Assembly: GCF_004010195.1 (NCBI RefSeq)
Contig: NC_057719.1
Location: 25,742,663-25,799,782, forward strand
Reading direction: 5' to 3'
DNA: 57,120 nt
Source: Chiloscyllium plagiosum
Lineage: Eukaryota
The notes beneath the pieces are model-generated. The model did not search any database, was not told the origin of the DNA, and saw nothing but the letters and a program-made list of their open reading frames with translations. This document shows, one piece after another, positions 5,169 to 56,324 of the stretch (within the stretch, counting starts at the first letter, position 1; each line of letters starts with the position of its first letter). Both the position numbers and the translations under genes were made by a program.

Positions 5169-5179
5169 CCTGACCATTA

Positions 5180-10772: not shown

Positions 10773-10942
10773 TGATTTGGAGATGCTGGTGTTGGACTGG
10801 GGTGTACAAAGTAAAAAAAAATCACACAACACCAGGTTATAGTCCAACAGGTTTAATTGGAAGCACTAGCTTTCGGAGCGCCAATTAGTGCTCCCAATTA
10901 AACCTGTTGGACTATAACCTAGTGTTATGTGATTTTTAACTT
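10773..10942. mobile_element. Palindromic family C PLE-terminus insertion
   Basis: Inverted arms and a partial hammerhead gcgctccgaaagcta on the minus strand. TSD tgtttctggaa at 10762 and 10943. Confidence 0.78.
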
Positions 10943-12239
10943 TGTTTCTGGAAGAACTTTCTTTACTGACTCTTGAGCAACTTGTGAACTAGTTGGTGCC
11001 TTAAAAACCAATGGAGATTGTAAATTTTAAACTGCGATATCGTTCAACAGGAGGCCACAAACTGCCAATTTACTAGCCAGGCTCAGCACATTTGGATAAT
11101 CTCTACAATAATGTATTACAAAAGATATTTTGTGAATGAAGGGAGGAGGATGCCCTCTCTCTCAATACATAAAGATTGTGATAATTATAGGAGTACATGA
11201 TGGAGACTGTAAATGGCGTAGGAAGTGTATCAGGAACCAAATAATTTACAAGAAGTACGCCCAGGTGTTCTAGACCCTTACGAGAAAGCAGCAACTCTAT
11301 TCGGATTAGAAAGTAATAGTTAAAAAAACTGTGGTTCAAATGCTAAAAACATTTGAAACAAGCATTGCGCTTCAGTGAGATCAGCATGGTTATGCAAATT
11401 ATCTCATACACTATCTCAAAGAATAAAAAAAAAGAAGTTTATAAAAAAGGCCCCTGGGGCTCAGCTCACTGCGTATCAGTCACCACTATTCTTACACTCA
11501 AAGACAAAATTAATCCTAGGATAAAGCTGGTGGCCTTCCACCCTGGGGATGCACTGATTCTATCTGAACAAACTGCTGTCAATGGTGTCTCAAGTCAAAG
11601 CCTGGAAGACAGATAGAAACTGAAGGATTGTTCTGAACCTTTTGTGTATTCAATGCTTTAGTGTCTTCCAAGTTTTCTGTGGCTTGTATGATATATCACA
11701 CGACTGTCTACAGACATAGAGATTCTATTCGACCATATTGAGCATCTAATGAGAGTGCAGTGCCACTTGGTGATACTTGTTTAGTTATACTACAATCAGA
11801 TAGCAAATAGAAAATGCTAACCCTGTATCTGAAAGTGAAAAGCCATGTTTCAAATTAGCTACCACAAAATACGGACTTCTGAAAAAGTAAATGGCAATTC
11901 AGAATGAATCACAGGGTGAGGCACCAAACCTCCAGTTGAGAAAGCATAGGTATGTGTCTCCTGAACTGCACAAGGGTAGAGGCGACAGTAGGGTCAAAAT
12001 GGAAAGTGCTGTAGTACCCAACATACTGCTGTGTCTCAAATAAATGATGTTTTGGAGCCACAGTTTGCATCTGTTACCTGTCATTGTGCAAAGACCCATC
12101 TCATATGGAGAATGGCTACAAGCAAATGTCAGGCTTCAACTACAAGAGCCCAGAATTGCCTCTGGTGACGAAACTCATTCAAATAAGTAGGAATAGCAAG
12201 TAAATGTCCTCCAAGTAAGCCATATCTGGAATACTGTAA

Positions 12240-12790
12240 ATATTGATGAAGTCAGAGTGGTACAAATTGTGTATGTGGACTTTAGCAAAGCCTTTGACAA
12301 GATTTCACGTGGTAGATGCATTAATAAAGTTAGATCACTTGGGAATCACTGTGAACTGCCAATTGGATACAAAATTGGCTCAATGATAGGAGATAGAGGG
12401 TGGTGGTGGAGGGATGTGTTTCGGACTAGAACGGTGTTCATTAGGATTGGTAACGGGTCCAGTTTTGTTTGTCATGTATATAAATGACTTAGATGAGAAC
12501 ATAGTAGGCATGGTTAGTAGGTTTGCAGATGATACCAATGTTGACGGTATAGTGGACAGTGAAGAAGTTATGGGAGAAAGTGAGGACTGCAGATGCTGGA
12601 GATCAGAGCTGAAAAATGTGTTGCTGGAAAAAGCGCAGCAGGTCAGGCAGCATCCAAGGAGCAGGAGAATCGATGTTTCGGGCATAAGCCCTTTGGGTCA
12701 TGATCCCTTGGGTCAATGGGCTGAGGAGTGGCAGATGGAGTTTAATTTGGATAAAAGTAAGGTATTAAATTTTGGTAAAACAAACAAGAG
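12240..12790 (+). mobile_element. CR1 RT fragment, probably continued at about 18840-19590
   Basis: YVDFSKAFDKI, YINDLD, FADDT and WQMEFN motifs. Confidence 0.8.
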
Positions 12791-15700
12791 CATAGAACAA
12801 AGAACAATACAGTGCAGTACAGGCCCTTCGGCCCTCGATGCTGCACCGACCTGTGAAAATGTTCTGAAGCCCTTCTAACCTACACTATTCCATTATCATC
12901 CATATATTTATCCAATGACCATTTAAATGCCCTTAAAGTTGGCGAGTCTACTACTGTTGCAGGCAGGGCTTTCCACGCCCTTACTACTCTCTAAGTAAAG
13001 AACCTACCTCTGACATCTCTCCTATATCTACCACCCCTCAGTTTAAAGCTAAGTCGCCTCATGCTAGCCATCACCAACCCAGGAAAAAGGCTCTCACTGT
13101 CCACCCTATGTAATCGCCTGGTCATCTTCTATTTCTCTATTGGGTCATCTCTTACTCTTCTTCTCTCTAATGAAAACAGCCTCAAGTCCCTCAGCCTTTC
13201 CTCATAAGACCTTCCCTCCATAGCATGCAACATCCTAGGGAATCTCCTCTGCATCTTTTCCAAATGCTTCCACGTTCTTCCTATAATGCAGTGACCAGAA
13301 TTTTACACAATACTCCAAGTGCGGCTGCACCAGAGTTTTGTACAGCTGCAACATGACTTCATGGCTCCGAAACTCAATTCCTCCACCAATAAAAGCCAAC
13401 ACACCGAATGCCTTCTTAACAATCCTATCAACTGGGTGGCAACTTTCAGGGATCTATGCATGTGGATACAGAGATCTCTCTGCTCATCCACATTACCAAG
13501 AATCTTACAATTAACCCAGTGCTCTTTGTTCATGTTATTCCTCCCGAAGTGAATCACCTCACATATTTCTACATTAAACTCCATTTGCCACCTCTCAACC
13601 CAGCTCTGCAGCTTATCTGTGTCCCTCTGTAACCTGCAACATCCTTTGGCACAGTCCACAACTTCACCGACTTCAGTGTCATCCATACATTTACTAACCG
13701 ATTCTTCTACGCCCTTATCCAGATCATTTTTAAAAATGAAAAACAGCAATGACCCCAAAGCAGATCCCTGTGGTACACCACTCGTAACTGAACTCCAGGA
13801 TGAACATTTCCCACCAACCACCACCCTCTGTTTTCTTTAAGCTAGCCAATTCCTGATCCAAATCATTAAAAAACCTTCAATCCAATGCTTCCGTATTTTT
13901 TGCAATAGCCTACCATGAGGAACCTTATCAAATGCTTTACTGAAATCCATATACATCACATCAACTGCTTTATCCTCATCCACCTGTTTGGTCACTTTCT
14001 CAAAGAACTCAATAAGGTTTGTGAGGCACGACTTACCCTTCAAAAAACCGTGTTGACTATCCCTAATCAAATTATTACTTTCTAGATTATTATAATTCCT
14101 ATCTCTATAACACTTTCCAACACCTTACCAACAATGAAGTAAGGCTCACTGATCTATACCAGGGTTGTCTCTACTCCCCTTCTTGAACAAGGGAACAACA
14201 TTTGCTATCCTCCAGTCTTCTGGCACTATCTCGTCACTGTCTATAGGAATAAAGATCAAAGCCAAAGGCTCTGCAATCTCCTCCCTAGCTTCCCAGAGAA
14301 TCCTAGGATGAATCCCATTCAGCCCAGGGGGGTTAACTATTTTCACACTTTCCAGAATTGCTAACACCTGTGTGTTGCCTGTGTGAATACTGATGAAAAT
14401 TATTCATTTAGCGCCTCTCCTATCTCTTTGGACTCAACACACAACTTCACACTACTATCCTTGACAGAATCTAATCTTTCTCTAGTCATTCTTTTATTCC
14501 TGACATACCTATAGAAAGCTTTAGGGTATTCCTTCATCCTACTTGTCAACGATTTCTCATGTCCCCTCCTGGCTCTTAACTCTCACTTTAGGTCCTTCTT
14601 GGCTAACGTGAAAAATTCACGCTAACTGAGCCTTCACGCCTCATCTTTACATCAGCCTCCTTGTTCCTCTTGACAAGAGATTCAACTTCTTTAGTAAATC
14701 ACGGTTCCCTCACTCGACCATTTACTCCCAGCCTGACAGGTACATACTTACCAAGGACACACAGTAGCTATTCCTTGAATAAACTCCACATTTCAATTGT
14801 GCCCATCCCTTGCAATTTTCTTTCCCAACCAATGCATCCTAAATCTTGTCTAATTGCCTCATAATTGCCTTTCCCCCAGCTATAACTCTTGCCCTGCGGT
14901 TTATACCTATCCCTTTCCATTGCTAAAGTAAACATAACTGAATTGTGGTCACTATCACCAAAGTGCTCATCTACCTCCAAATCTAACATCTGGCTGAGAC
15001 CATCACCCAGTACCAAATCCAATATGGCCTCACCCCTTGTTGGCCTGTCTACATACTGTGTTAGGAAACTCTCCTGCACACATTAGACAAAAACTGACCC
15101 ATCTAAGGTATTCGAACTATAGCATTTCCAGTCGATATTAGGAAAGTTAAAGGACCCCATGCCTTATTACTTTCGCTCCTATCCAGAATCATCTTTGCAA
15201 TCCGTTCCTCTACATCTCGGGAACTTTTTGGAGGCCTATAGAAAATTCTCAACAGGGTGACCTCTCCTTTCTTTTTTCTAACTTATTACCTCAGTAGACG
15301 AGTCCTCATCAAATGTCCTTCCTCCACCGTAATACTGTCCTTGACTAACAATACCACATCTTCCCCTCTTTTACCACCTTGCCTATTCTTACTGAAACTT
15401 CTAAACCCTGGAACCTGCAAAAACCATTCCTATCCCTGCTCTATTCATGTCTCCAAAATGGCCACAACGTCAAAGTTTCAGGTACCAACTCATGCTGCAA
15501 GTTCACCCACCTTATTCTGGATGTTCCTGGTATTGAAGTAGACACACTTCAAACAACCTTCCTGTCTGCTGGTACACTCCTGTGACCTTGAAATCTTATT
15601 CATGACCTCACTACTCTCAACCTCTTGTACACTGGAGCTACATTCAAGTTCACATCCCTCTGCTGAATTAGTTTAAATCCTCCCGAAGAGCATTAGCAAA

Positions 15701-16050
15701 ACTCTCCCCCAAGATACTGGTACCCCTCTGGTTCAGGTGTAGACCATCTCATTTGTAGAGGTATCACCTATCCCAGAATGAGCCCAATTATCCAGGCATC
15801 TGAATCCCTCCCTCCTGTAGCAGCACTGTAACCACATGTTTAACTGCTCTCTCTATCGCTATTCCTTGCCTCACTAACACGTGGCATGAGTAATAAACTA
15901 GAGATAACAATTCTGTTTGTTCTAGCTCTAAGCTTCCACCCTAGCTTCTTGAATTTCTGTCTGACATTCCCATCCCTTTTCCTACCTATGTTGTTGGTGC
16001 CTATGTGGACCACAACTTGGAGCTGCTCCCGCTCCTCCTCAAGGATCCGT
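12790..16050 (-). mobile_element. CR1/HER1-type LINE, 5'-truncated and frameshifted (end of ORF1 esterase, ORF2 endonuclease and RT)
   Basis: VVVHIGTN (SGNH ORF1), PTRGEAILDLVL, GDSDHN, QHGFLKGKSCLTNL, YMDFSKAFDKVPH and GVPQGS motifs. 3' tail near 12790. Confidence 0.9.
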
Positions 16051-16703
16051 AAACATGATCTGTTCTATGTTCTATATTCAAGCAGGAGGTTGGAAGAACA
16101 CAGCAAGCCAGGCAGCATCAGGAGGTGGAGAAGTCAATGTTTCAGGTGTAACCCTTCTTCAGGACTGGAGTGGGTGCAGAGGGAGCTGCAGATAAAGGGG
16201 GTGGGGGAGGGATTTGGGTGAGGAGAGGGGCAGGGTGCTGAGGTAGTGATAGGTGAACACAGGTAGAAAGTACGAACTGGTTGGACTATGGGAGGAATGA
16301 ATCCAGTTGGTACCTGGAAGGAAGGGTCAATGAGAAGAATGGAATGGAGAGGGTGGGGCTGGGAAGGAAGGTTATTTGAAATTGGAGAACTCAATGTTGA
16401 GTCTCAACGCTGTAGGCTGCCCAGGTGGAAGACGAAGTGTTGTTCCTCCAATTTGTGGTTTGATTTATTGTGGTAATGGAGGAGGCAAATGATGGTTACG
16501 TTGGAGAGGGAGTGGGAAAGGAAATTAAAATGGGCAGTGACAGGGATGTCAGGTCACTCCCTGCGGGCACAGCGGGGTAGAGAAGACCACATTGGGAGCA
16601 CCGGATATAATAAACTAAGTTGAAGGACCGCATCGATTTTCCTGCTCCTCAGGTGCTGTCTGACCTGCTATGCTTTTCCAGCACAACTCTAATCTAGACT
16701 CTA

Positions 16704-17460
16704 ACAAAGAGGATTGATGAAAGCAGAGCGGTAGATGTGATCTATACAGATTTCAGTAAGGCGTTTGACAAGGTTCCCCATGGGAGACTAATTAGCAAGG
16801 TTAGATCTCATGGAATACAGGGAGAACTAGCCATTTGGATTCAGAACTGGCTCAAAGGTAGAAGACACGGTGGTGGTGGAGGGTAGTTTTTCAGATTGGA
16901 GGCCTGTGACCAGTGGAGTGCCACAAGGATCGGTGCTGGGTCCTCTACATTTTGTCATTTACATAAATGATTTGGATGCGAGCATAAGAGGTACAGTTAG
17001 TAAGTTTGCAGATTATACCAAAATTGGAGGTGTAGTGGACAGCGAAGAGGGTTACCTCAGATTACAACAGAATCTTGATCAGATNNNNNNNNNNNNNNNN
17101 NNNNNNNNNNNNNNNNNNNNNNNNNNNNNNNNNNNAAGGATGTTGCCAGGGTTGGAGGATTTGAGCTATGGGAAGAGGCTGAACAGGCTGGGGCTATTTT
17201 CCCTGGAGCGGAGGCTGAGGGGTGACCTTATAGAGGTTTACAAAATTATGAGGGGCATGGATAGGGTAAATAGCCAAAGTCTTTTCCCTGGGGTGGGGGG
17301 GTTCAGAACTAGAGGGCATAGGTTTAGGGTGAGAAGGGAAAGATATCAAAGAGACCTAAGGGGCAACTTTTTCATGCAGAGGGTGGTACGTGTATGGAAT
17401 GAGCTGCCAGAGGAAGTGTTGGAGGCTGGTACAATTGCAACATACTGTACATCTCTATGA
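16704..17460 (+). mobile_element. CR1 RT and 3' fragment (spans the N-gap 17085-17135)
   Basis: VTSGVPQGSVLGP, YINDLD and RRLRGDLIEVYKIM motifs. Confidence 0.88.
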
Positions 17461-17836
17461 ATCTATCTGCAGTCCTCACTTATGCCTAAGTTGAAGGAGT
17501 CGCAAGTGATTCTCTGTCTCACCTGGAAGGACTGTTTTGAGCCCTGGGTGGAGGTGAAGGGGGTGGTGTACTGGCAAGTTTTACCCTTTCTGTCATCCAG
17601 ACAGCTCTCCACCACATCTCCTCCATTCCCTGCTCCACTGCTCTAAATGCCCCCCACCTCTAAACAAAATAAAGACAGAGTCCCACTTGCCCTCACCAAC
17701 CACCCCACCAGTCTCCGCATCCAACGTATTATCCTTAAATATTTCTGCCAACTCCAACTAGACCTGACCACCAAGAACATCTTCTCCTTCCCACCCCTCT
17801 CTGCCTTCCCACCCCTCTTTGCCAATCCTTGGTTCA

Positions 17837-18062
17837 GGATTAGAATGGTGCTGAAAAACACAGCAGGTCAGGCACCATCCGAGGAGCAGGAAAATTGACG
17901 TATCGGCAAAAGCCCTTCATCAGGATCAGCTCTTCCTAATGAAGGACCTTTGCCCGTAACATCGATTTTTCTGCTCCTCGGATGCTACATGGCATGATGT
18001 GCCTTTCCAGCACCACTCTAATCTTGACTCTAATCTCCAGCATCTGCAGTACCCACTTTAAC
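17837..18062. mobile_element. Palindromic family A insertion inside the Neptune-type element
   Basis: TSD ccaatc(c/t)ttggttca at 17822 and 18063. Confidence 0.78.
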
Positions 18063-19143
18063 CCAATCTTTGGTTCACGCCACTCTCCCCACTGACTCCC
18101 CTGAATCCCACGAACCTACCCCGCAACTGGAAAAGATGCAAAACCTGCCGATACACCACCTCCCTCACCTCCATCCAGGGCCCCAAACAGAGATTCGCCT
18201 GCCTCTCCTCCAATCTAGTTTACTGTATCTGGTACTCCCAATGTGATCTTCCCTACACAGGGGAGACCAAACATAAATTAAGGAAACAGTTTGGCGAGAA
18301 TCTCAGTCAGGCCCACAGGGGCTGACCTGACCTCCCAGTCACTGTCCATTTTAACTTCCCTTCTCACTCCCTCTCCGACATGACCACCCTCGGCCTTCTC
18401 CATTGCCACAGTGAATCACACCACAATTTAAAGGAGCAAGGCCTCACCTTCCGCCTGGGCAGCTGACAGCCCAAAGGACTCAACATTGAGTTCTCCAATT
18501 TCAAATAACCTCCCTTCCCATCTCCGACTCCCTTTCCAGCCCCAGCCCCTTCCCCTCCCTTCCATTACTTTGATAGACCCTTCCTTCCAGCTACTAACCA
18601 GATTCATTCCTCCCATTGACCAACTAGGTCATACCTTCTATCTGTGTTCACCTATCACTAACTCAGCAACCTCCCCTTCCCCACCCAAAACCCTCTCCCA
18701 ACTGCCCCCCATTATCTGCAGTTCCCCTTACACCAACTCCCACTCCTGAAGAAGGGTTACACCCAAAATGTTGACTTCTCCACCTCCTGATGCTGCCTGG
18801 TTTGCTGTATTCTTCCAGCCTCCTGTTTCTGAACCTTGGGTTAAGGCATTTAACATGCTTGCCTTCATTGCTCAGATCTGTGAGTATAGAGTTGGAATGT
18901 CATGTTGAGGTTGGTGATGCCTCTTCTGGAGTACTGTGTGCAGTTCTGGTCGCCCTCCTGTAGGAAGGGGGTATTATTATATTGGAGAGGGTTCAGAAAA
19001 GATTGCTGAGAATGGAGGGCTTGAATTATAAAAATAGGCTGGGACTTTTTTCACTGGAGCATAGAAGTTAGGAGTGACCTTATAGAGGTTTGTAATATCA
19101 AGAGGGGCATAGATAAGGTGAGTAGGTCTTGTGAGTAGGTTTC

Positions 19144-19171
19144 CTGATGAAGGGCTTTTGCCCGAAATGTC
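19144..19171 (+). ncRNA. Hammerhead motif, family A, within insertion 19133-19269
   Basis: ctgatga-a-gggc(tttt)gccc-gaaa-tgtc with CpG decay in stem III. TSD tgagtaggtcttgt at 19119 and 19270. Confidence 0.7.
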
Positions 19172-20149
19172 GATTTTGCTGCTCGTCGGATGCTGCCTGA
19201 ATTGCTGTGCTCTTCCAGCACCACTGATCCAGAATCTGGTTTCCAGCATCTGCAGTCATTGTTTTTACCTGAGTAGGTCTTGTCCCTAGCATGGGAGAAT
19301 GCAAAATTAGGGGACCTATTTTCAAAGTGAGAGGAGAAAGCTTTAAAAGAACGTGAGGGGCAACTTTTTTATACAGAGAATGGTTTGTGTGTGGAACGAA
19401 ATGCCAGAGGAAGTAACGGGAGAAGGCACAGTAACAACATTTAAAAGATATTTGGATAAACATGAATAGGAAAGGTTTGGAAGAATATGGGCCAAATGCA
19501 GCAAGTCAGATCAGTTTAGTTTGGGAACATGATCGATGTGGACTAGTTGGACTGAAGGATCTGTTTCTGTGCTGTATGGCTCTATGTAAATAATCGTATT
19601 AAGAATACAGGTACAGCAGGCAGTGAAGAAAGCTAATGGCATGCTAGCCTTCATAGCAAGACGAATTAAGTATAGGAGCAAAGAAGTCCTTCTGCAGCTG
19701 TACAGGGCCCTGGTGAGACTGCACCTGGAATTTTGTGTGCAGTTTTGGTTTCCAACTTTGAGGAAGGACATTCTGGCTATTGAGGGAGGGCAGCGTAGGT
19801 TCACGAGGTCAATTCCCAGAATGGCGGGACTATCATATGTTGAAAGATTGGAGTGACTGGGCTTGTCTTTACTTGAGTTTAGAAGGATGAGAGGGGATCT
19901 GATTGAATTGTATAAGATTATTAAAGGACTGGACCCTCTGGACGCAGGAAGTATGTTTCCACTGATGGATGAGTCCAGAGCCAGAGGACACAGTTTAAAA
20001 ATAAAGGGTAGGCCATTTAGAACAGAGTTGAGGGGAAATTTCTTCACCTAGAGAGTGGTGGATATATGAAATGCTCTGCCCCAGAAGGCAGTCGAGACCA
20101 CATCTCTGGATACTTTCAAGAAATAGATGGATAGATCTCTTAAAGATAA

Positions 20150-20462
20150 GGGCGGCACGATGGTACAGTGGTTAGCACTGCTGCCTCACAGCGCCAGAGA
20201 CCCGGGTTCAATTCCCACCTCAGGCGACTGACTGTGTGGAGTTTGCACATTCTCCCCGTGTCTGCGTGGGTTTCCTCCGGGTGCTCCGGTTTCCTCCCAC
20301 AGTCCAAAAATGTGCAGGTCAGGTGAATTGGCCATGCTAAATTGCCCGTAGTGTTAGGTAAAGGGTAAATGTAGGTGTATGGGTGGGTTGCGCTTCGGCG
20401 GGTTGGTGTGGGCTTGTTGGCCCGAAGGGCCTGTTTCCACACTGTAATCTAATCTAATCTAA
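20150..20462 (+). mobile_element. Full-length HE1-type V-SINE
   Basis: tRNA-like head (A box tggtacagtgg, B box gggttcaattcc), V core tgtgtggagtttgcacattctccccgtgtctgcgtgggtttcctccggg, CR1-like tail with (aatct)n. Confidence 0.88.
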
Positions 20463-21404
20463 TAGTGGAATCAAGGGCTATAGGGATAAGGCAGGAACAG
20501 GATACTGACTGTGGATGATCAACCATGATCATAATGAATGGTGGTGCTGGCTCGAAGGGCCGAATGGCTTATTCTTACACCTATTGTCTATTCATATCAC
20601 GGAGTATTTTTTGCTAATACCCAATCATACAATTGTAATACTGTATTTCTAAAAGTAAGGAGTCACCAAGATTTCAGGGAATAAGACTGATGCTGCTGCT
20701 GCTGCTGCACTATTGTTAGACTGATATTGGATCTTTCACATCAATTACAGTCCACCAGCTGGTAATGCAGTTACCCACCAGAGCCATTTATTTAACTCGG
20801 ACAGACAGAGCAGTAAAACACTGAACACAGCAGTGTTCACCACAAGCAAAAGGCAAATGCGTCAGTGAAGCATGCAAACTGCCCCCATGCAATGATGTCC
20901 ACTTTGATCACTTTTACTGGCTTGGCAATTTATTCATTATAGAGAAAAGTTGAAGAAGTATTTAAATTGCTGGCTCCTAACATGTTCTCTGTCGGTGCTT
21001 GGGTTAGCTGCCGCTTGGAGGAGCCATTTAGGCTGTTCGAAGAATAATCTTAAATGATAAGTGAACGGGATCGAGCGTTTGCAACAAAATACCGAACAAG
21101 GTAAAAAGGAATTTCCAAAAGAACGACCACTTTCAAATAGTTTAGACAACACAATCTGACCCACTGGCATAGCTGACCCAGAGACTTAAAAAAAATCCAA
21201 GTCTAATCCACAAAGGGTCTGACTTCAAACCTTCCGCTAAAGACTGTAATGAGTGAACGAAACTTTAGTCAAATAAAAGTTGAAATCTAAACATTTCCTC
21301 TTTGTGTTTTTTTATAGCTCGATGGGGAGTGAATGTTTTTAATAGGAGTAGCCCCCACCCACTGCTCGGACTTGACCTGACCACAGCGGCTGAAACACAC
21401 TTAC

Positions 21405-21576
21405 CCCGGGCGGCTCCCGGTGGAGTATTTCCGTGACTTTTTCTTTCCTGGTGTTGAGTTGAAGCCACACTGGACAAGTCCTGATGAGTTTATCCGGAAT
21501 GCTGATGCCTGGAAACGGCGAAGGGACAGTGGCGGTGGCAGGCTGTCCACATTCATCTTTCGCCCCTAGCAGTGAA
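21405..21576 (-). CDS. RIN3: RIN3 coding exon 2, start of the SH2 domain
   Basis: Acceptor tgtgtccctttag, donor gtaagt, 172 nt (phase 2 to phase 0). Encodes SLLGAKDECGQPATATVPSPFPGISIPDKLIRTCPVWLQLNTRKEKVTEILHREPPG, matching the RIN3 motif GISILEKLIKTCPVWLQL. Lies downstream of SLC24A4 on the same strand. Confidence 0.9.
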
Positions 21577-21846
21577 CTAAAGGGACACAGAACATAACCT
21601 GGCTGCATTATAGATAAGAGTTAGAATTTACGTGGCAATGGGACCGGCCACACTAATAACAATGTTGACAGATTATTTGACACAACAGTACGAGTGAAGT
21701 CAGACTTTGCAAAGTTGAATTTGCATGTTAATGCACAAACTTGTGAAGTGCATTAGGAGAAAGCTCCTGGGATAGTAAGATGCTTTGTTTTGTTAAAATA
21801 AAAAACCCTGAGCAATAACCAGTCTGTTCAATGTTAAGCTACATAC

Positions 21847-21896
21847 CCTGGCCTGTCTCCAGTTTCCACTTCTTGTCCAGATGTTCTCTCCATCAT
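21847..21896 (-). CDS. RIN3: Probable RIN3 first coding exon
   Basis: ATGATG start, MMERTSGQEVETGDRP(G), 50 nt ending in phase 2 at donor gtatgt (21841-21846). Phase is compatible with exon 2, giving a 270-nt intron, and a promoter-like region lies upstream. Confidence 0.72.
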
Positions 21897-21999
21897 CGCT
21901 TCGCTCGATCAGCCCCACTGTGCAGACCCATTTAAAGAAATATGCTGACTTCAGCACTGTCGTTTCCAAACTGAGCAATAACTCCACATTTTAGTAAGA

Positions 22000-23330: not shown

Positions 23331-23454
23331 CAAATTCTTCTTAAAATCAGTATTGATCACACAAGAAAGATTTTCGGCTGTAACTATGCTTTCAAATCAA
23401 AACTAAATCAATTCTGTCGTGAACTGGAGCTCCAACCCTCACATCAGTGGTCAA

Positions 23455-28260: not shown

Positions 28261-28327
28261 AAGTTAGTCAACGAGATGTCTAACAAGCATTAATCCTCTT
28301 GCACTAGTTAACTCAATACTTATTAGT

Positions 28328-46612: not shown

Positions 46613-46640
46613 GACGTTTCGGGCATAAGCCCTTCTTCAG
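46613..46640 (-). ncRNA. Minimal hammerhead ribozyme motif, intact core, antisense arm
   Basis: Exact reverse complement of 46668-46695. Confidence 0.8.
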
Positions 46641-46667
46641 GAATGGGGAAAGTTGCTTTCCCCATTC

Positions 46668-46695
46668 CTGAAGAAGGGCTTATGCCCGAAACGTC
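46668..46695 (+). ncRNA. Minimal type I hammerhead ribozyme motif, intact core
   Basis: CTGAAGA-a-GGGC(ttat)GCCC-GAAA-C-GTC, with palindromic stem III ACGT and cleavage triplet GUC. Confidence 0.8.
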
Positions 46696-47038
46696 GATTC
46701 TCCTGTTCCCTGGATGCTGCCTGACCTGCTGCGCTTTTCCAGCAACACATTTTGAGCAACTCTATGCATCACAGGAACATGAGCAGGTTGTTCAGCCCTT
46801 TGAGCCTGCCCAGCCATTCAGTATGATCAACATTTCCTTCATTCACCCCATCCCCATAATCCTATACACCGCTGGTAATCAGAAATCTATCAATTTCTAT
46901 CTTAAACATACTCAAAAACAGATACTCCATAGTCCTCTGCTGTAGAGAATTCTAAAGGTTTACAGCCTTCTATTTAAGAAAAAAATCTCATCATAGACCT
47001 GAGTGACACATCCTATCTCAGGTATACTTTTGAAAGGG

Positions 47039-47850
47039 TCGAAAAGTGTAGCGCTGGAAAAGCACAGCAGGTCAGGCAGCATTCGAAGAGCAAGGCAGTC
47101 GACTGATGAAGGGCTTATGCCTGAAATGTCGACTCTCCTGCTCCTTGGATGCTGCCTAACCTGCTGTGCTTTTCGACTATGATCTCCAGCATCTGCAGTC
47201 CTCACTTACTACTAATTATTTTGAAAAGGCATCTACCCTTTCGGAAATGTCCTAGAAAGGGTAGATGTCCTTTTTTGGAGGTAAGGTGACCGCTAGAGGA
47301 AGTTAAGTGACATTTGGAGAAGGTAAGGTGCCATTTCGAATTGTTAAATGTAGGCATGAATTTCCATAAAAGGTGCATAATCTAATTAGAACTGTTCAAA
47401 TCAATTGTAAAGATGTGTTAAAAGTGGCAAGAGTACCTATCAAAAAGATCTCTCAAAATGTCAAGAGGAGAAGACCTGTCAAAATCAACTTTCAAAGGAA
47501 GTTTTCAAGCTGTCAAAGCAATTAGACTTTGAAAAATGATCTGGAGTCTTTAAAGAACATTACTTGTTATTTAAGTCTCAAAGAGTGCGGTGCTGGTAAA
47601 GCACAGCTGGTCAGGTAGCATCGGAGGAGCAGGAAAGTTAACATATCGAGCATAAGCCCTTCATCAAGAATGGGGTGTTGCCCAAGGGGGCTGAGAGATA
47701 AATGGGAGGGGGTGGGGCTGGGGGAAAGGTAGCTGGAAATGCTTTAGGTACATGAAGGTGGGCGTGAAGGTGAAAGGTCAGAGAGGAGGGTAGAGCAGAT
47801 AGGTGGGAAGGAAGATGGACAGGTAAGACAGTCTGTTGACAAATACCCAT
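47039..47850. mobile_element. Two further family A insertions (about 47039-47218 and 47579-47850)
   Basis: Shared gctggaaaagcacagcaggtcaggcagcat terminus and hammerhead remnants. Other copies lie at about 12572-12692, 16628-16702, 25415-25478, 26360-26490 and 55735-55872. Confidence 0.7.
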
Positions 47851-48782
47851 TTAAGCCTGTTGACATAAGCTTGAGGACTTCAAATAAAGTATTACTGCTG
47901 CATTAGTGATTTCATAACCATCCATTATGACAGTAGGTTGTCTACCACTTCATAGTGCATTGACAACTAAAAGTGGTTATCAAAGCTTTAAATTAATTCC
48001 AATATTCCCAAGGGATTGAGCACTTTAATGAAATGCTTGTTCTCTTAAGATGTTATAGCATTGAGAGAATGTGAATGGATTTTCATAAAAGATAGTGTTT
48101 CTCTCAATATAGTGAAGACTACAATATGAACTTAGAATTTTATTTTATCTCATTCAAGATGAATTCTGAGATTTGTACATGATGGATACCAGATGGATTG
48201 ACATAATAGGTGTATGGTAGTGGAAGAGGAACAGGAGTTGGCACCAAGTTATCATGGAGGTTGTAAAGAGTAAGAGGGGTGACTTGATAGAGGTTTATAA
48301 GATGATCAGGGAAATAGATAGAGTAGACAGTCAGAGACTTTTTCCCCGGGTACAACAGAGTGTTACAAGGGGACATCAATTTAAGGACACAACATTGTGG
48401 GCTGAAGGGTCTGTTCTGTGCTGTATTGTTCTATGTTCTAGTAATTGAGATGATTGTAGGGACAAAGACTGGCAGGCCAGGTATGGGTGCAATGGTGGTA
48501 GTACAAGTGGTGTGTGATCGCATAGTGCATGCTTGAGGGAAGGAGTGAGAGGGTGTGAGGGCTGGGGAGTGTTTTATGTTTCTTTCAAGTCTCAAACTTC
48601 AATTCAGTGTCATTGCACAATGTCAGGTCTTCCATGCAGCCCTCCTCTGAACCAGGCAGCCTCCAATCTCGCTCCAGGGTCGCCCAGCCTGAATTCTAAC
48701 ATAGTCCGCTTAACAGACTAAAGTGGTATGGGCAGCCATTTCTTTACAAAAAGTCTCCTGAATTGTGGAAGAATATCCATGC

Positions 48783-49105
48783 TGGGAGAGTCCAGAACTA
48801 GAGGGCATAGGTTTAGGGTGAGAGGGGAAAGATATAAAAGAGACCTAAGAGGCAACTTTTTCACTCAGAGGGTGGTACGTGTATGGAGTGAACTGCTAGA
48901 GAAAGTGGTGGAGGCTGGTACAATTGCAACATTTAAAAGGCATCTGGACAGGTATATGAATAGGAGGTATATGAATAGGAAGGGTTTGGAGAGATATGGG
49001 CCAGGTGCTGGCAGGTAGGACTAGATTGGGTTGGGATAGCTGGTTGACATGGACAAGTTGGACCGAAGGGTCTGTTTCCATGCTGTACATCCCTATGACT
49101 CTATC
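48783..49105 (+). mobile_element. CR1 3' fragment
   Basis: ESRTRGHRFRVRG...QRVVRVW. A further CR1 piece lies at about 48270-48440. Confidence 0.85.
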
Positions 49106-49109
49106 TCTT

Positions 49110-50530
49110 GCTCATGTCAGAAGCATGCAGAATAGCTCAGCAGTAACTTAGTCACTGACAGGGAAGTTATCTCCAGATATTCCTTTCTGTGTAATACATA
49201 GTTCCATGGAGTGAACAATTAAGTCTGAACGTATGTTTAAATATGTCTGCTCATTAGTCATTTTCCAAGATTGGCATTTAGTTCAAAGCTTACTGAAAGC
49301 AAAATGCAGATTTGCCAGAGATTTTTTTAAAAAAGCCATTGCCAGTCTTACATTTAAAAAATGTAAATTTATGCTCAAAGTTCATAATAGAAACAAAAAC
49401 ATCTGTTAAAAGATGTTTTTAACGATGTTACTAAACACCATATAACTAAATCCTGTTGCTCTTATCCGCAAAAAAGATTCATCTGCTCGTTGCCCATTGC
49501 CTTTCATTTAGAAAGCAACCAATAAATGTGAAAATATACAAATTAAAGGGTTAACATCCCTTTTCTTTAGTTTTCCAAGGCTGTAATGAAAGACCTGTTA
49601 AAAATATCAAACAGTTCTATTCAGATTCTTGTTATGTATGGCAGTGAGGGAAACATACAGAAGGACTATTTATATTGCCAAAATATCGCAAAATTGATGT
49701 AAGATCTATATTGCACTTTACAATTCAGTCCAAGAATAAATTCATCCATGTCCATCGCAACTGGAACAAATGAATTAAATGTTTAAAAATGTGTACACAA
49801 AGTTCTTCTTTTGATAAAAGGAACTCTGTCTTTAGTATGTTCTTTCTATATATGTATATGTATATATAACATAATATCAAAATACATATGAATCAAAATT
49901 CAAACTTAAAATCAGGATATATACTTTGTTATTAAAATTTACAAGAATGTTTGCATCTTCTTTCATTATTGGATTACTATCACCAAATATACAAATAATC
50001 TTGTTCAAGTCCATACAATTCCAATATATACTCTTTAAGTTACCGAACAGAGACAATTTGCCACTCTTGTATTGTGGCCTAATAAAAATTAGGTCAGAAA
50101 GGTCTGCCTAATAAATTCTTCCCACACAAAACATATGTGGTGAAGTCCCTTGAAAAATAAAGTGATTTGTAGCACTCTTGCTGTTTAATAAATACATTAT
50201 AATTTTGTGCTTGTGTGCACAAGCAGGAGGCTATAAAATTAACAGGAAATCCAGATGAAATTCTCCCCTCAGGATGTGGTAGATAAGTCAATAATTTACA
50301 AGTGTATTTCATTAAAGCTCCATGTGAGGGAGCCAGAACTCCTTATTGGACTTCAATACACAGCAATCAGTCAGCAGGCTTTTTTTTCAAATATTAGCTT
50401 TGGCTCTGTGGCAAAAGCTCATTTACCTTCCAAAATAGTCACAAATCATTCTTTATGCATGAAAGAAGGAAATGCAAGAACAGCCACAGAAAAATTCTGT
50501 TCGATGATCTCCGGTTGCTGTCCAATCTGC
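49110..50530 (-). other. SLC24A4: Proximal SLC24A4 3' UTR (distal end unknown)
   Basis: AT-rich sequence without recognisable TEs directly after the stop codon. Confidence 0.6.
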
Positions 50531-50683
50531 TTAAATGCTGTCTTGGCACATTGGCAGGTTGACAAAGGTAAACACATTGAATTCGATCATTATTGAGAAA
50601 CACAAGAAGATAGCATAGAGGATGAGCACATAAATACCAAGCTTTGTATCCAGTTTCCATCCATTCACGTGGATACCAGCCAC
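50531..50683 (-). CDS. SLC24A4: Last coding exon of K+-dependent Na/Ca exchanger NCKX4
   Basis: Acceptor tttgtggttctag is followed by VAGIHVNGWKLDTKLGIYVLILYAIFLCFSIMIEFNVFTFVNLPMCQDSI* (50 aa plus TAA at 50531-50533). This closely matches the recalled vertebrate SLC24A4 C-terminus (...YAIFLCFSIMIEFNVFTFVNLPMC...), and synteny with RIN3 agrees. The frame is not in the ORF track. Confidence 0.93.
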   Translation of the reverse strand: MAGIHVNGWKLDTKLGIYVLILYAIFLCFSIMIEFNVFTFVNLPMCQDSI

Positions 50684-51253
50684 CTAGAACCACAAATACA
50701 AATATATATGTATACACAGTTAGCATAGAGTAAAGGATATGCAATCACATTGTATTGAAGACAGTAACCGATGTTAGGAGCTGATAGTGTTCAACATGAC
50801 TTTAGCATTTATATCAACTAATATTTTACATTTCAGCATTTAACTACATTGAGCTCCTAAAATAATTTTAGTGCTTATGACGGGTAAACAAATTTTTCGA
50901 TAAAATGGCAAGTGTCTGAAGTCTGTCTGCAGTCCATTAGCCACTATTGCTCACCACTTCCAAAAGTACATGAGAATAGCCTTTGTGTTTAAAGTAAAAT
51001 GCCACACAGTAAGGCACAAACCCATTGTAGAGTTTTGTTATCAGAAGATAATTCCGGCAAAATCAGTGGCAACGGGCACAACCAGCAGGCGAAAAGAAAC
51101 ATACAATTTGACCTTAAGAAAAATAAGTAAACGTTTCTGCTTTGTAGTGCAAACATTTACAAACATTATTTCATTCATTTGTCATTGCTGGTCACAATAT
51201 ATTTCAACATTTGTTGCTCCTTTATTTCTTTTCTTGTCAGACTGAAAATATTA

Positions 51254-53705
51254 TGGATGTAGGTTTGTTTGCTGAGCTGCAAGGTTCATTTCCAGACATT
51301 TTGTTACCCTACTAGGTAACATCTTCAGAGGACCTCAGGTGAAGCAGTGCTGAAAATTCCTGCTTTCTATTTATGTGTTTGGGTTTCTTTGCGTTGGTGA
51401 TGTCATTTCCTGTGGTGATGTTTTTACTGTGGTGAAAGCACTTCCTGTTCTTTTTCTCAGGAGGTAGTAGATGGGGTCAAACTCGATGTATTTGTTGATA
51501 GAGTTCCGGTTGGAATGCCGTGCTTCTAGGAATTCTCATGCGTGTCTTTGTTTGGCTTGTTCTAGGATGGATATGTTGTCCCAGTTGAAGTGGTGTCCTT
51601 CCTCATCTGTATGTAAGGATACTAGTGANNNNNNNNNNNNNNNNNNNNNGTTACGGTCCTTGCACGGTGTTTTGTAAATGACATTAGTTTTGTTTGTTGT
51701 CTGTATAGGGTCTTTCAAATTCATTAGCTGCTGTTTCAATGTGTTGGTGAGTTTGTGGACTACCATGATGCCAAGGTGTCTGAGTAGTCTGGCAGTCATT
51801 TCCGCGATGTTTTTGATGTAGGGGAGAGTGCCTAGGGTTTCTGGATGTGTTTTGTCTGCTTGTTTGGTTTTGTTGCTGAGAAATTGCAGACTGTGTATAT
51901 TTTGAATAAGCGGTATTGGTGATTTTTCTCTGCTCTGCGTAGTTATTCTGTGCTGCAGTGTGTATTGGTTCGTTGAAATAATCGTGCTGTGCTGTTCCAG
52001 CAATAAAGTTTCAACTTTGATCTCCAGCATCTGCAGACCTCACTTTCTCCTCGTTGAAATAATCGCTCTACTGTGACATCTAGAAATGGCAGTTTGTTGT
52101 TTTCCTCCTCTTTAGTGAATTTTATGCCAGTAAGGGTATGATTGATGGTCTTGAAGATTTCCTCTAATTTGTTTCATTTAGTGATGACAAAGGTGTCATC
52201 CACGTAGCGGACCCAAGTTTGGGTTGGATGGTTGGCAGAGCTGTTTGTTCGAGTCTCTGCATTACTGCCTCTGCTAAGAATCCTGATATCGGAGATCCCA
52301 CGGGTGTTCCGTTGGTTTGTCTGTAGGTTTTGTTGTTGAAGGTGAAGTCTGTGGTAAGGCATAGGTCGAGCTTGATGATACTGTCCTTGGCTCGGATTAA
52401 TGAAACCAGACAGATCCAACACACCACGCTTCTACGGATTACCCAAAATTCACAAACCAGGAGCCCCCCTCCAACCCATAGTCTCACTACCTGGAAAACC
52501 AACTTACAGATTGGGCAAGGAGCTACACAAAGACTAAAACACTTAGTAGAAGACTCACGCCACTCCATCCAAGAATTCTTGAAGAGCATCAAAGACACTA
52601 AGATAGAAGAGGATGAAATAATGGTCTCCTTTGTTGTAACAGCCCTGTTTACATCAATCAACATTAACCTGGCCAAGGAAACACTGACTACACTATTAGA
52701 AGATCTAAAGACACATACACCAAACACCACTAACTTCATCAATAAGGACACATGTCACAGTAAAGCAAACAGCCAATGGGGAACTTCAAACTAGCGTCTA
52801 CAGGAAAACAACACACATGGACCAAATATTGAACGACAGAAGCAGTCATCCCAACGTCCACAAACAAAGCTGCATCAGAACATTATTTCAACGAGCCAAC
52901 ACACACTGCAGCACAGAGGAACTACGCAGAGTAGAGGAAAATCACCTGTACAGTGTATTCAAAAAGATTGGGTACCCAATGAACACAGTCTGCCGATTTC
53001 TTAGCAACAAAACCAAACAAGCAGACAAAACACGTCCAAAAGCACTAACCACTCTCCCCTACATCAAAAACATCTCAGAAATGACTGCCAGACTACTCAG
53101 ACCCCTTGGCATCCCACAAACCCACCAACACACTAAAACAGCAGCTAATGAACTTGAAAGACCCTATACAGACAAGCAAAATGAACGTCATTTACAAAAT
53201 ACCGTGCAAGGACTGTAACAAACACTACATTGGACAAACAGGCAGAAAACTAGCCACCAGGATACATGAACACCAACTAGTCACAAAAAGACATGACCCT
53301 CTCTCACATACGGATGAGGAAGGACACCACTTTGACTTGGACAACACATCCATCCTAGGACAAACCAAACAAAGACACGCACAAGAATTCCTAGAAGCAC
53401 GGCATTCCAACAGGAACTTTATCAACAAACACATCAAGTTTGACCCTATATACTACCCCCTGAGGAAAGGAACAGAAAGTGACTTCACCACAGGAAATAA
53501 CATCACCACAGGAAATGACACCACCAACCCAAAGAAACCCAAACATATAAATAGAAAGCAGGAATTTTCAGCATTGCTTCACCTGAGGCCCACTGAAGAT
53601 GTTACCTAGTAGGGTAACAAAATGTCTGGAAATGAACCTTGCAGCTCAGCGAGCAAACCTACATCAAAAAACCTCAACCTGAGCTACAAATCTTCTCAAA
53701 ACTTG
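51254..53705. mobile_element. Penelope-like (Poseidon-type) retroelement with two inverted arms, degenerate
   Basis: RT remnants (TPVGSPISGFLAEAVM, WVRYVDDTF, MVSFVVTALFTSI) and a GIY-YIG domain (NVIYKIPCKDCNKHYIGQTGRKLATRIHEH). Minus arm about 51254-52390, plus arm about 52394-53705. TSD ctgaaaatatta at 51242-51253 and 53706-53717. Confidence 0.9.
51985..52050 (+). mobile_element. 66-nt family A 3' terminus nested in the Poseidon-type PLE
   Basis: ccagcatctgcagacctcactttctcc end. TSD tcgttgaaataatcg at 51970 and 52051. Confidence 0.75.
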
Positions 53706-54984
53706 CTGAAAATATTAGTTTTAAAAGCTACGGGGTGACTTTTCTGATTTTGGGAAGTTTCATGAAGGGTTTCTCTCCGTAAGCTTTGGTGAGTTTTCTC
53801 ATACAATTCTTTGCTACTCATCTCATTATATATGCCCAACACCTCACTGCAACTCAGCGCTATGCTGTGCTTGCCAGAGACAGAGCTACACATCACAGCC
53901 ATCACTTTCAGGGTTCCCACCGCCAGTGTCGGGTTTAAAGCCCAGCTATCCCCAATTCAGGTCAGTCCCTGCCAGCCAGATTGCCCTTTCGCAGTTTCTG
54001 TGTGGAAAGAACTGCCTCAGAGATGGTTGACAAGGGCTCCCTGGTTTATTGTTAGAGGCGTGGAGGTCCTCCGCAAATGTTCCTTGCCAGTTCTCAACCC
54101 AAACTTTAGCATTGTCCAGACCTTGTTACATTTGGACATGGATTGCTTCAGTACCTAAGGAGTTGCAAATGATGCCGAACACTATGCAATTATTGGTGAA
54201 CATTCTCACTTCAGACCTTATTCCGGAGGGAATGTCATTGAGGAAGCAGCTGAAGATGGTTGGGCTGAGGACATTGCCCTGTGGAACATCTGCAGAGATG
54301 TCCTGCAGCTGAGATGACTGACCTCCAACAACCATGACCATCTGCCTTTACGCTGAGTATGACCCTAATCAGCTGTTGATTCTCACTGACACATATCTGA
54401 CTCTGGTAGACATTAGATTATGATAGAATTTTGCACAGCTGTGACACTCTCCAAGTCAAATAGCTGGCTCTCAATGTCTTATTTACAGTGTTTGTATCAG
54501 AACACAGTCCTAGCAGTTGCCAGGACTGCGTCAGATGAATCCGATCAACAGTGAACCAGTCGTTCTGGGGGCAAACTCAGGTGGACTTCACACTGACAGT
54601 AATGCTGTCAGATTATATTTACATCCAAGGGTGTGCTGACTGTAATGATTATTTTAGACTTGTCTGTATATCTCACAATCTGCCAAGTCATGGTACTAAA
54701 TTGCACGTGTAGGTTTTGGAATGATAAATAGAGACATCAGGCTGGTAAGTATGAGTGATAGAAGTCAAAGAAAGCTTCAGCCTCCTGTTACTGTTGAATA
54801 GAGAGATGGAATATTATTTTCAGACGTAGGCTATTGCAAATTCTTCATAATGTCCCAGGAGAGGCACATGAGACCACTAAATACAAGACTGCCAAGCTGC
54901 TAAATTTAACATTCAATGATAAGTAACAGTCAGAATAGATAATCAAATTCTTGGTTTGTAAAATGCAGCGCAATTATGGAAACT

Positions 54985-55224
54985 TGGATAATACAGGTCC
55001 CAGACTGATAAATACAGCTGCCAGACTGGTGAAAGCTAACATTAACCTGATGAGTACAGCTCCCAAACTAATAAATGCACCATCAGAATAATGAACACAG
55101 CTCTCACACTCAAATATTTAGTCATTAGATTGATAAATACAGCTCCCAAACTAATAAAGCCATCATCAAGCTGATAAACACAGCTCCCAGATTATCAATT
55201 ACAGCCTTTAGCTTGATAAAAACA
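54985..55224. repeat. Degenerate 21-bp minisatellite, about 12 units
   Basis: Consensus approximately ctgataaatacagctcccaga. Confidence 0.75.
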
Positions 55225-56324
55225 AGGTGCATTAAGAATTAGGACTATTGAGGAAACTTAACTACTACAATTAGATCAAGATATGTTTAAGGATCGAGTG
55301 TCTTCATAGCAAATGATGTCTAGCTACAAAAAGTATTGCTCCACATGTGGGCAGTTAAAATATTAAATATGCTCATGTCTTAAAAAGGAAGAGAATTAAA
55401 GGCAGTGGTGAAGGAAAAGGGGAGCAGATATTTAGTTAATCAATTTCTAAACTTCTCATCCCTTATTGCTAAAATAAATACATTTCTGGGTATTATGTGC
55501 AGTTCTATTCAATATAACTAAAAGTTTACAGTTTTGGAATCATTCATGAGCTTGGTGAGGCTTCAGTTAAAACTGTGTCCAGGTTTGGTTTCCTCACACA
55601 ATGGGGAATATTGCTTTGGAAAGTGGGCAGTATGTGCCATTGTTTTAAATTCCAGTTAAAGCTCATTTAGCTGGGTAAGCCTGAAATGAGTTGGATCCCT
55701 CTACTTTAGACAAGTGTAGGCTTTAAGTGATTGACACCGCCCTCTTGCCCTCCCAGCCCCCCTTCCTCAACCTCCAAATTCCTGATGAAGGGCTTACACC
55801 CGAAATGTCGATTCTCCTGCTCCTCAGATGCTACCTGACCTGCTGTGCTTTTCCAGCACAGCATGTTTTGAGTGATTGAGTCGAGTGACCAAATTATGTT
55901 TATGCAAATAATCGTCTCTCAACTGGATAGATTCAAGAGGATCACGGTTACTAACGGCAAAACTAGATGGATCACATGGATGTTGGATTATTTCTGTTTT
56001 CCTGAGAAATAGTGGAGCTGTTGAATAGGTGAACCCTGATTTGCTAAATTATTTCAAGACAGAGTTCGATCTGTTTCTGATTTGGGTGGAAGCCACAAGA
56101 CTCACATTAATCAGGGCCAATACAATTCCCTGGACTAGTTTTGATTACTTCAGGAGGTCAGACAGTCTCCTATGATGGACTGAATTTCTATTTGATATTC
56201 TCTTTGTGTCAGGAGACTACTAGACATCAGGGGGTTATGTCTGGTGCATCTGACATCACAACTATCTGGGAGAAGCTGGATTGACAGTCAGTATTATAGA
56301 ATAGCAGAGCTATGTGGGACAAAA

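What the first reader, a model, noticed from the sequence alone, without database searches (positions are those of the whole stretch)
10773..55872. Several PLE families each carry a covarying minimal hammerhead ribozyme
Seen: the same architecture recurs with different stem sequences. Family A: CTGAWGA-a-GGGC(n4)GCCC-GAAA-CGTC (46668, 19144, 32993, 36850). Family B consensus: agtc-CTGAAGA-a-GGGT(tac)ACCC-GAAA-CGTT-gact (about 16135-16166 minus, 18746, 36535). Family C consensus: cac-CTGATGA-a-GGAGC(n3)GCTCC-GAAA-GCTA-gtg (30026, 10864 minus). Poseidon-type: cca-CTGAAGA-t-GTTACC(n6)GGTAAC-(g)AAA-(c)GTC-tgg (about 53591). Family D is a weaker remnant (about 45190). Stem II, and stem I in most families, differs in sequence but stays paired, and stem III is a 4-nt palindrome (ACGT or AGCT). 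Known: PLE pseudo-LTRs carry minimal type I hammerheads proposed to cleave as dimers. Inference: with roughly 20 complete or partial cores in 57 kb, this genome may hold a very large, poorly annotated ribozyme complement.
Basis: partly seen in the sequence, partly recalled or inferred. Interest (0 to 1): 0.75.

Follow-up and report, generated by a model that had tools for sequence, protein, structure and literature searches.

The report
Shark Penelope hammerheads, mostly dead stubs
These motifs are the already described minimal hammerhead ribozymes at the ends of Penelope-like jumping genes, with about 165,000 intact-looking cores in this shark-like genome; most copies are decayed or predicted to be locked in hairpins, and their break points suggest the copied RNA was likely uncut.

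Summary
Real, but a known kind. The window holds 37 Penelope-like-element (PLE) terminal arms; 31 carry part of a minimal type I hammerhead, and only 2 have an intact core (46668+, 46640-), both in one 97% inverted repeat. A strict core pattern matches 164,815 places genome-wide (control 105). All five families lie just downstream of PLE GIY-YIG genes: A, B, D and probably C are Neptune-type, P is Poseidon-type. Between subfamilies, stems I and II change in compensated pairs, including a U3-A8 core swap (1,269 matches, 98 of 100 listed being U3/A8). Inserted copies show no clear extra core conservation (4.7% vs 5.7% flank, p=0.07). They mostly sit in head-to-head, TSD-flanked insertions, not the tandem pairs dimer cleavage needs. 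Arm 5' ends pile up 27-45 nt before the cut site, at a predicted transcription start, with no excess at the cut site, so templates were likely uncleaved. This matches Cervera 2014 and Frangieh 2024. The scan noted the same thing many times on this and other shark-like genomes (155 notes). Cleavage was not testable here. New member of a known kind; interest 0.3.

The parts
46664..46699 (+). Intact minimal hammerhead, family A2; C3 at 46668, predicted cut 46695/46696; stem I has a U.U mismatch
46609..46644 (-). Second intact A2 core, back to back with the first
46516..46771 (.). Head-to-head A2 insertion (long-tailed arm -, short-tailed arm +), 102-nt arms 97% complementary; folds as one hairpin
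19141..19266 (+). Family A3 arm, core at 19144 with CpG-decayed helix III
32986..33115 (+). Family A3 arm, core at 32993, helix III and stem I damaged
36710..36946 (.). Family A head-to-head pair (cores 36834-, 36850+, both damaged), 14-bp TSD
17844..18062 (.). Family A head-to-head pair with a TSD (15 bp, 1 mismatch), nested inside the family B element
16089..16568 (-). Family B inverted arm (core 16162) preceded by a Neptune-type GIY-YIG C-terminal remnant (16410-16568)
18140..18819 (+). Family B: GIY-YIG remnant 18140-18505, then pLTR with core at 18746 (G12->A)
36459..36591 (.). Family B head-to-head stub, both cores broken or partial
10784..10947 (.). Family C head-to-head stub, only the 3' half of a core, 11-bp TSD
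29228..30133 (.). Family C2 insertion: GIY-YIG C-terminal remnant 29771-30018 (-) with arm 29228-29333 (-) and inverted arm 30020-30133 (+); both cores G12->A
51247..53688 (.). Poseidon-type insertion: RT/EN remnants (Pfam GIY-YIG E=0.0011 at 53085-53606), arms 53573-53688 (+, core at 53593) and 51247-51348 (-); both cores G12->A
45189..45295 (+). Family D remnant (old Neptune-type pLTR); further weak D arms at 42551-42647 (-), 40136-40234 (-), 7167-7208 (+)
12573..55865 (.).

Best explanation
The motifs are minimal type I hammerheads in the terminal repeats (pLTRs) of several Neptune- and Poseidon-type Penelope-like retrotransposon families; the fold was likely selected in the active source elements, where it is predicted to cleave weakly and with protein or dimer help, while the roughly one million inserted arms are likely inert. 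Shown: position just after the GIY-YIG gene, compensated stem and core changes between subfamilies, head-to-head insertion with a TSD and one long-tailed plus one short-tailed arm, and arm 5' ends piling up 27-45 nt before the cut site. Inferred: the element RNA starts at a TATA/Inr site at the first base of stem I. The element protein nicks both target strands and starts reverse transcription at two sites about 62 and 97 nt past the cut site. Starting at the 5' copy of these sites gives short cDNAs that run off the uncleaved RNA end and join head to head. Self-cleavage is therefore likely a side or regulatory reaction, not the step that makes the insertion template.
For: PLE link: every family sits 30-600 nt downstream of a GIY-YIG C-terminus, and 33 of 37 did so in a protein-first test (chance 9.5%). 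A family A1 copy has a 684-aa frame with DKG, YIDD, the CX4CX2C linker and the CxxC GIY-YIG, which are the Neptune/Nematis markers in PMC8557442; the P translation shows no such linker. Selection on the fold: 11 core positions are identical across A, D7, C and P, while A-vs-C/P flanks are at shuffle level (0.38-0.55 vs 0.43+/-0.08). In 13 homologous A/B/D copies, 5 of 9 pairs change on both sides and 94% of cells pair, against <=45% for slid controls. D1 was found by tail homology rather than by the core and swaps C3-G8 to U3-A8: 98 of 100 listed matches are U3/A8, 1 is C3/G8, 1 is C3/A8. Inert copies: non-CpG decay is 107/2258 in the core vs 542/9507 in the flank, p=0.07; the hairpin buries the cores; tandem partners are rare. 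Insertion anatomy: 64 of 105 divergent pairs have TSDs vs 6 of 150 controls; long+short tails in 52/64 AB, 19/21 C and 14/16 D pairs. Break points: family A has 119 of 308 in -45..-27, 26 in -149..-46, 16 in -10..-1 and 14 in 0..9. Genome-wide junction counts after composition scaling: about 41,000 at -32, 2,300 at -8, 1,160 at the cut, 2,300 at +5; only 15 symmetric cut-to-cut junction loci. An Inr-like TCATTCC/TTATTCC sits at -32 in A, with TATA-like boxes at -64 to -69 in A, C and D. Frangieh 2024 found both strands primed, two internal RT starts, a protein-assisted hammerhead and unprocessed RNA as the main substrate.
Against: No cleavage assay. The transcription start is predicted only; the one usable RNA run (single-cell poly(A), about 2% read) showed no pile-up of molecule ends, which this library type probably cannot show. 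The -32 peak also coincides with the start of stem I and with short junction palindromes (26 of 100 listed are CAGGA-ATTCC), so microhomology may sharpen it; 14 of 100 may be another subfamily's native upstream sequence, and the four patterns cover slightly different subfamily sets. Family cores other than D1 were seeded by a core descriptor, so their core identity is partly circular. The commonest A subfamilies spread with a stem I mismatch, and the dimeric active fold is 5-16 kcal/mol above the cofold minimum. No full-length tandem element was recovered among 20 long-ORF loci. C's clade rests on a short remnant.
Confidence: 0.75

Rival explanations
1. Cleavage is a required step for long copies: the two hammerheads at the two ends of a full-length transcript pair up, cut, and the RNA is ligated into a circle that templates long or tandem insertions, while the stubs come from uncut linear RNA (Cervera and de la Pena model).
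For: The 4-nt palindromic helix III (ACGU or AGCU) is kept in all families, which suits dimer pairing. RT starts lie downstream of the cut site, so long copies need a circular or read-through template. The model is proposed in PMC4209133.
Against: No excess of cDNA ends at the cut site. No back-joint at the cut site was listed when reads and contigs were laid on an A1 copy (weak test). PAc catalytic mutants insert normally in vitro.
Confidence: 0.2
2. The pile-up of 5' ends reflects fold-back self-priming or microhomology joining at short palindromes near stem I, not a transcript start.
For: Symmetric junctions are common at -32. D1's mode at -35 falls on the palindrome AGCT. Arkhipova 2013 argues for self-priming on an antisense template.
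Against: The upstream edge is sharp in A, C and D and shifts with the TATA-like box. The palindrome centred on the cut site yields only 15 symmetric junction loci. Long+short tail asymmetry with a TSD fits two priming events.
Confidence: 0.15
3. The dispersed copies are an active ribozyme complement that cuts host pre-mRNAs.
For: About 165,000 cores keep all catalytic residues. Family A sequence is present in an RNA run (1,723 reads). The youngest subfamily A1 (1.2% divergence) has a full 4-bp stem I and folds as the monomer hammerhead in isolation.
Against: No clear extra conservation of the core in copies. Equal counts on both strands (not resolved by gene orientation). Partners in cis are rare and divergent arms common. 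Published single min-HHRs do not cleave, and 8 of 9 Xenopus retrozyme dimers did not either.
Confidence: 0.07
4. The 200-260 bp hairpins are an independent MITE-, SINE- or retrozyme-like family that copies itself as a unit.
For: 118 of 323 sampled arms are in such short head-to-head units, many with TSDs.
Against: Junctions differ from copy to copy and grade continuously into longer EN-bearing insertions (L127). Tandem Repeats Finder shows no hammerhead arrays in the window.
Confidence: 0.05

Closest known systems
Minimal hammerheads (min-HHR) in metazoan PLE pLTRs, including the U3-A8 variant (Cervera and de la Pena 2014, PMC4209133; parts 1-2 of 4 read, supplements not seen)
   Same: Type I core, extra base between positions 9 and 10.1, G10.1-C11.1 pair, palindromic 15.2/16.2 with no helix III loop, several consensus families per genome, pairs on opposite strands, and a U3-A8 swap.
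   Different: Copy number: 164,815 strict matches here vs about 4,000 (coelacanth) and 9,000 (X. tropicalis), with different descriptors. Helix II is shorter (4-5 bp) in the Neptune-type families. No shark is named in the parts read.
PAc, Poseidon element of Anolis (Frangieh 2024, PMC11167929; parts 1-2 of 4 read)
   Same: Hammerhead in the pLTR, two RT start sites downstream of it giving an optional 30-40 nt tail, both target strands primed, unprocessed RNA as template.
   Different: Shown biochemically there and only inferred from insertion ends here; most copies here are Neptune-type.
EN+ PLE insertion units with inverted pLTR, one-sided tail and TSD (Arkhipova 2013, PMC3846280; Craig 2021, PMC8557442; passages read)
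   Same: Head-to-head pLTRs, tail on one arm, 8-10 bp TSDs there vs about 10-17 bp here, TATA and Inr in the pLTR.
   Different: Here the minimal two-armed stub is the commonest form and its junctions cluster at the hammerhead's 5' edge; I did not find that stated in the passages read.
Non-LTR retrozymes (Li et al. 2026, bioRxiv 10.64898/2026.07.22.740005; parts 1-2 of 5 and passages read, supplements not seen)
   Same: PLE-derived type I hammerheads in vertebrates, including one chondrichthyan.
   Different: Retrozymes are head-to-tail tandem arrays; these copies are dispersed and inverted.

Membership tests
Minimal type I hammerhead of PLEs | Conserved core CUGANGA...GAAA...UH | tested here: met
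   Family consensuses; 164,815 genome matches; only 2 of 37 window arms intact
Minimal type I hammerhead of PLEs | Helices I and II kept by compensated changes | tested here: met
   5 of 9 pairs change on both sides; one stem I pair is unpaired in 6 of 13 rows
Minimal type I hammerhead of PLEs | Palindromic 15.2/16.2, no helix III loop; extra base at 9/10.1; G10.1-C11.1 | tested here: met
   CG in A, D and P, GC in C; for B
Minimal type I hammerhead of PLEs | Located in the pLTR of a PLE | tested here: met
   (33 of 37 vs 9.5% chance)
Minimal type I hammerhead of PLEs | Self-cleavage as dimer or with protein | not testable with these tools
   RNA reads gave no end pile-up; energy model does not favour the active dimer
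Rfam hammerhead families | Reaches gathering score | tested here: not met
   no hammerhead family hit
Neptune/Nematis-type PLE (family A; B and D by homology) | RT with DKG, CX2-5CxxC linker, C-terminal GIY-YIG with CCHH | tested here: met
   L182 frame; B and D by EN and tail homology; no RT tree was built, so Neptune vs Nematis is not separated
Neptune/Nematis-type PLE (family C) | Linker and EN motifs | tested here: inconclusive
   Only a C-terminal remnant, which cross-matches the B-type EN query
Penelope/Poseidon-type PLE (family P) | GIY-YIG with CxxC, no Zn-finger linker | tested here: met
   Window 53085-53606; criterion
Non-LTR retrozyme | Head-to-tail tandem units each with a hammerhead | tested here: not met

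The most novel reading that the evidence does not exclude
This shark-like genome is a million-event record of the PLE cycle. The hammerhead is the very 5' end of the element mRNA, and RT copies uncut RNA almost exclusively, so the ribozyme is a decapping off-switch or sorting device (cut RNA is excluded from insertion or routed to circles) that has been rebuilt through compensated changes, including U3-A8, in at least five lineages. With about 165,000 intact cores it may also be the largest hammerhead complement of any single genome.
Probability: 0.25. Interest if true: 0.6.

Novelty: new member of a known kind. Interest (0 to 1): 0.3.

Why it matters
The motif and its link to PLEs are published, so the finding itself is ordinary. 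Two points add something. First, scale: about 165,000 intact cores and roughly 1.1 million arms (3.2% of sampled bases, extrapolated), against 4,000-9,000 for the vertebrates in Cervera 2014. Second, the role of PLE hammerheads is an open question (Craig 2021 says so). The insertion ends here give a large natural dataset in which cDNAs end at a predicted transcript start and not at the cut site. Young subfamilies (A1 at 1.2%, D1 at 2.6% divergence) give ready constructs for testing it.

Tried and rejected
Rfam scans found no hammerhead family. A first break-point histogram showed a bump at the cut site (19 vs 6); it vanished with CpG-aware scoring (14 vs 16) and was not seen genome-wide, so it is rejected as an artefact of CpG decay. 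No RNA holder was listed for the stretch; run X20 gave no reads, and X19 gave no begin/end pile-ups or informative joints, so expression from pLTR promoters, poly(A) sites and cleavage ends remain open. No full-length pLTR-ORF-pLTR unit was seen among 20 long-ORF loci, and the 736-aa frame listed for L181 was not recovered there (locus has 1,489 N). The tail's long-range stem is predicted in most families but is not more stable than shuffles (z -0.3 to -1.8). Single window copies fold no better than shuffles. Subfamilies B, C2, D2, D4 and D6 dropped out of the conservation table because their small consensuses kept CpG decay; A4, B and C2 lacked upstream consensus for break-point mapping. Lunse et al. 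(PMC5785218) is not held; its figure of about 150,000 variants across all genomes is recalled, not checked. Searches for a paper on shark PLE hammerheads found none; subscription papers and unseen supplements may hold one.
Full report
Setting. The window lies in a 3.56-Gb vertebrate assembly. A family A protein's best named relatives are from Chiloscyllium punctatum (83%), Rhincodon (70%) and Mobula (72%), so the host is most likely a shark or close relative. A whale shark preprint reports expanded Penelope-like elements in introns (passages).

Observation. A descriptor scan gave 7 hits in the window and 0 in each of 20 Markov controls. Family profiles found 37 arms: 21 span the whole core region, 31 at least its 3' half. 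Only 46668+ and 46640- keep every catalytic residue and the palindromic helix III. The other cited copies carry CpG decay in helix III (19144, 32993, 36850, 16162), G12->A (18746, 30026, 53593), or are partial (10864, 36535, 45190). Exact genome-wide counts are A 92,517, B 120, C 13,649 and P 15,077, with controls of 0; the patterns differ in strictness. A generic strict core matches 164,815 places against 105. A random sample of 140 x 10 kb from contigs C1-C30 (1.35 Mb non-N) had 68 intact cores and 428 arms covering 3.2% of bases, which extrapolates to about 170,000 cores and 1.1 million arms. Rfam does not detect the motif.

What carries them. Each family follows a GIY-YIG C-terminus in the same sense. 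Starting from the protein, 33 of 37 endonuclease ends have an arm within 700 nt (chance 9.5%). An A1 copy (L182) has a 684-aa frame with DKG, YIDD, a CX4CX2C linker and a CxxC GIY-YIG; by the criteria in Craig 2021 (passages) this is Neptune/Nematis type. B and D share its endonuclease type and 3' tail. P lacks the linker and is Poseidon type. C is assigned only from a remnant.

Covariation. Stem I reads ATTC/GAAT (A1), ATTC/GATT or GACT (other A), AGTC/GACT (B), AGTT/AACT (D7), AGCT/AGCT (D1), CAC/GTG (C), GCA/TGC and TCA/TGA (P). Stem II changes likewise. On 13 hand-picked homologous A/B/D copies, 94% of 117 cells pair and 5 of 9 pairs change on both sides; slid controls pair at 19-45%. Shuffles reached the count of such pairs 66 times in 500, and related rows inflate cell counts, so this amounts to a few independent events. 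Eleven core positions are identical across A, D7, C and P, whereas A-vs-C/P flanks are at shuffle level; this is partly circular because those families were seeded by the core. D1 was not, and it swaps C3-G8 for U3-A8: of 1,269 matches, the 100 listed are 98 U3/A8, 1 C3/G8 and 1 C3/A8. Cervera 2014 reported the same swap in Schistosoma. Against strong selection, the most abundant A subfamilies carry a stem I mismatch (6 of 13 rows unpaired at that position).

The copies. Non-CpG divergence is 4.7% in the core (107/2258), 7.2% in stem II and 5.7% in the flank (542/9507), p=0.07, so there is no clear selection after insertion. In the first 100 loci, 160 of 323 arms had a divergent partner as nearest neighbour, 43 a direct one, 23 a convergent one and 97 none within 3.5 kb. 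Of 105 divergent pairs, 64 have a TSD (control 6 of 150), and one arm is long-tailed and the other short-tailed in 52/64 AB, 19/21 C and 14/16 D pairs; A tails end near +62 and +97 from the cut site. None of 68 intact cores has an intact same-sense partner within 200 nt (4 within 1 kb, 8 within 3.5 kb), while 22, 38 and 48 have a divergent arm. The intact window pair folds into one -226 kcal/mol hairpin. In nearest-neighbour energies the active dimer lies 5-16 kcal/mol above the best cofold (tertiary contacts are not modelled).

Break points. Among 308 family A arms, 5' ends fall 119 times in -45..-27, 26 times in -149..-46, 16 times in -10..-1 and 14 times in 0..9; C (39 of 81) and D (41 of 93) show the same peak, while P arms are mostly long. 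An apparent bump at the cut site was CpG decay. Genome-wide patterns requiring five non-matching upstream bases gave 7,593 at -32, 406 at -8, 72 at the cut and 190 at +5, scaling to about 41,000, 2,300, 1,160 and 2,300. These are rough: the subfamily sets differ, some -8 hits are internal deletions, and at least 11 of the 72 are one-base insertions. Symmetric cut-to-cut junctions, which that pattern misses, number 15 loci. The peak coincides with an Inr-like motif at -32 and lies about 32 nt after TATA-like boxes, and also with the first base of stem I. Earlier notes of this scan suggested the promoter reading before I ran this test; notes on other genomes claiming ends at the cut site were not borne out here.

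Mechanism. Inferred: the RNA starts at the hammerhead's first base. The element protein nicks both strands and initiates at two sites downstream of the cut, as shown for PAc. Initiation in the 5' copy yields cDNAs that run off an uncut RNA and join head to head between TSDs. Of 219 A arms ending within 45 nt either side of the cut, 189 retain sequence 5' of it. Cleavage would then be weak, assisted and not needed for these insertions, as in PAc. A circle route for long copies is not excluded. RNA reads show family A sequence in one poly(A) run (1,723 and 341 reads laid) with no end pile-up, which does not test cleavage.

Comparison and verdict. The motif meets every sequence-testable criterion of the PLE minimal hammerhead, and the insertion anatomy is that described for EN+ PLEs. 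It is not a retrozyme array. Dimer cleavage of such variants is reviewed in PMC6765202 (passages). I also read passages of PMC6155905 and PMC2377424 (Penelope has a TATA-less internal promoter, unlike the TATA-like boxes here). Six searches found no paper on shark PLE hammerheads; unseen supplements of Cervera 2014 and Li 2026 may include them. The scan holds 155 similar notes in at least 23 genomes. Verdict: new member of a known kind, notable for scale and for what the ends say about the template; interest 0.3.

Noticed in passing
window 50537-50683 (-): A 49-aa stretch ending in a stop that resembles the last exon of an SLC24A3/4 (NCKX) gene (recalled; Pfam and PDB gave no support). If right, the Poseidon insertion lies in its last intron and an AT-rich 3' UTR follows.
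   Followed up: partly
window 16089-18828: Nested insertions: an inverted family B element holding a CR1-like LINE fragment (label recalled) and a TSD-flanked family A pair.
   Followed up: partly
pLTR tail, about +16 to +85 from the cut site (e.g. window 46711-46760): A long-range stem is predicted to enclose the short-tail end in A1-A5, D1 and C despite unrelated sequence; candidate RT-binding structure, but z-scores are weak.
   Followed up: partly
L113:4091-4136 vs L111:3720-3765 and L024:1495-1540: One stem I pair runs G-C (B), U.C and U.U (older A), U-A (youngest A1): a possible compensatory path through mismatched, still highly successful intermediates; the order was not tested with a tree.
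   Followed up: partly
subfamily consensuses A1 and C: Poly(A)-signal-like hexamers at +48 (A1) and +9 (C) after the cut site; no poly(A) pile-up was seen for A1.
   Followed up: partly
L116:7007-7058, L055:2941-2992: A second, commoner Poseidon subfamily (P1) with an internal mismatch in stem II.
   Followed up: partly
window 6264-6399 and 7518-7642: An old inverted repeat pair about 1.2 kb apart with no hammerhead arm; possibly a DNA-transposon remnant.
   Followed up: no
window 55004-55224: 41/83-nt tandem repeat.
   Followed up: no
window 20150-20460, 23080-23330, 4860-5170: Copies of a tRNA-headed SINE-like repeat and many CR1-like LINE 3' ends across the window (labels recalled, not tested).
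   Followed up: no
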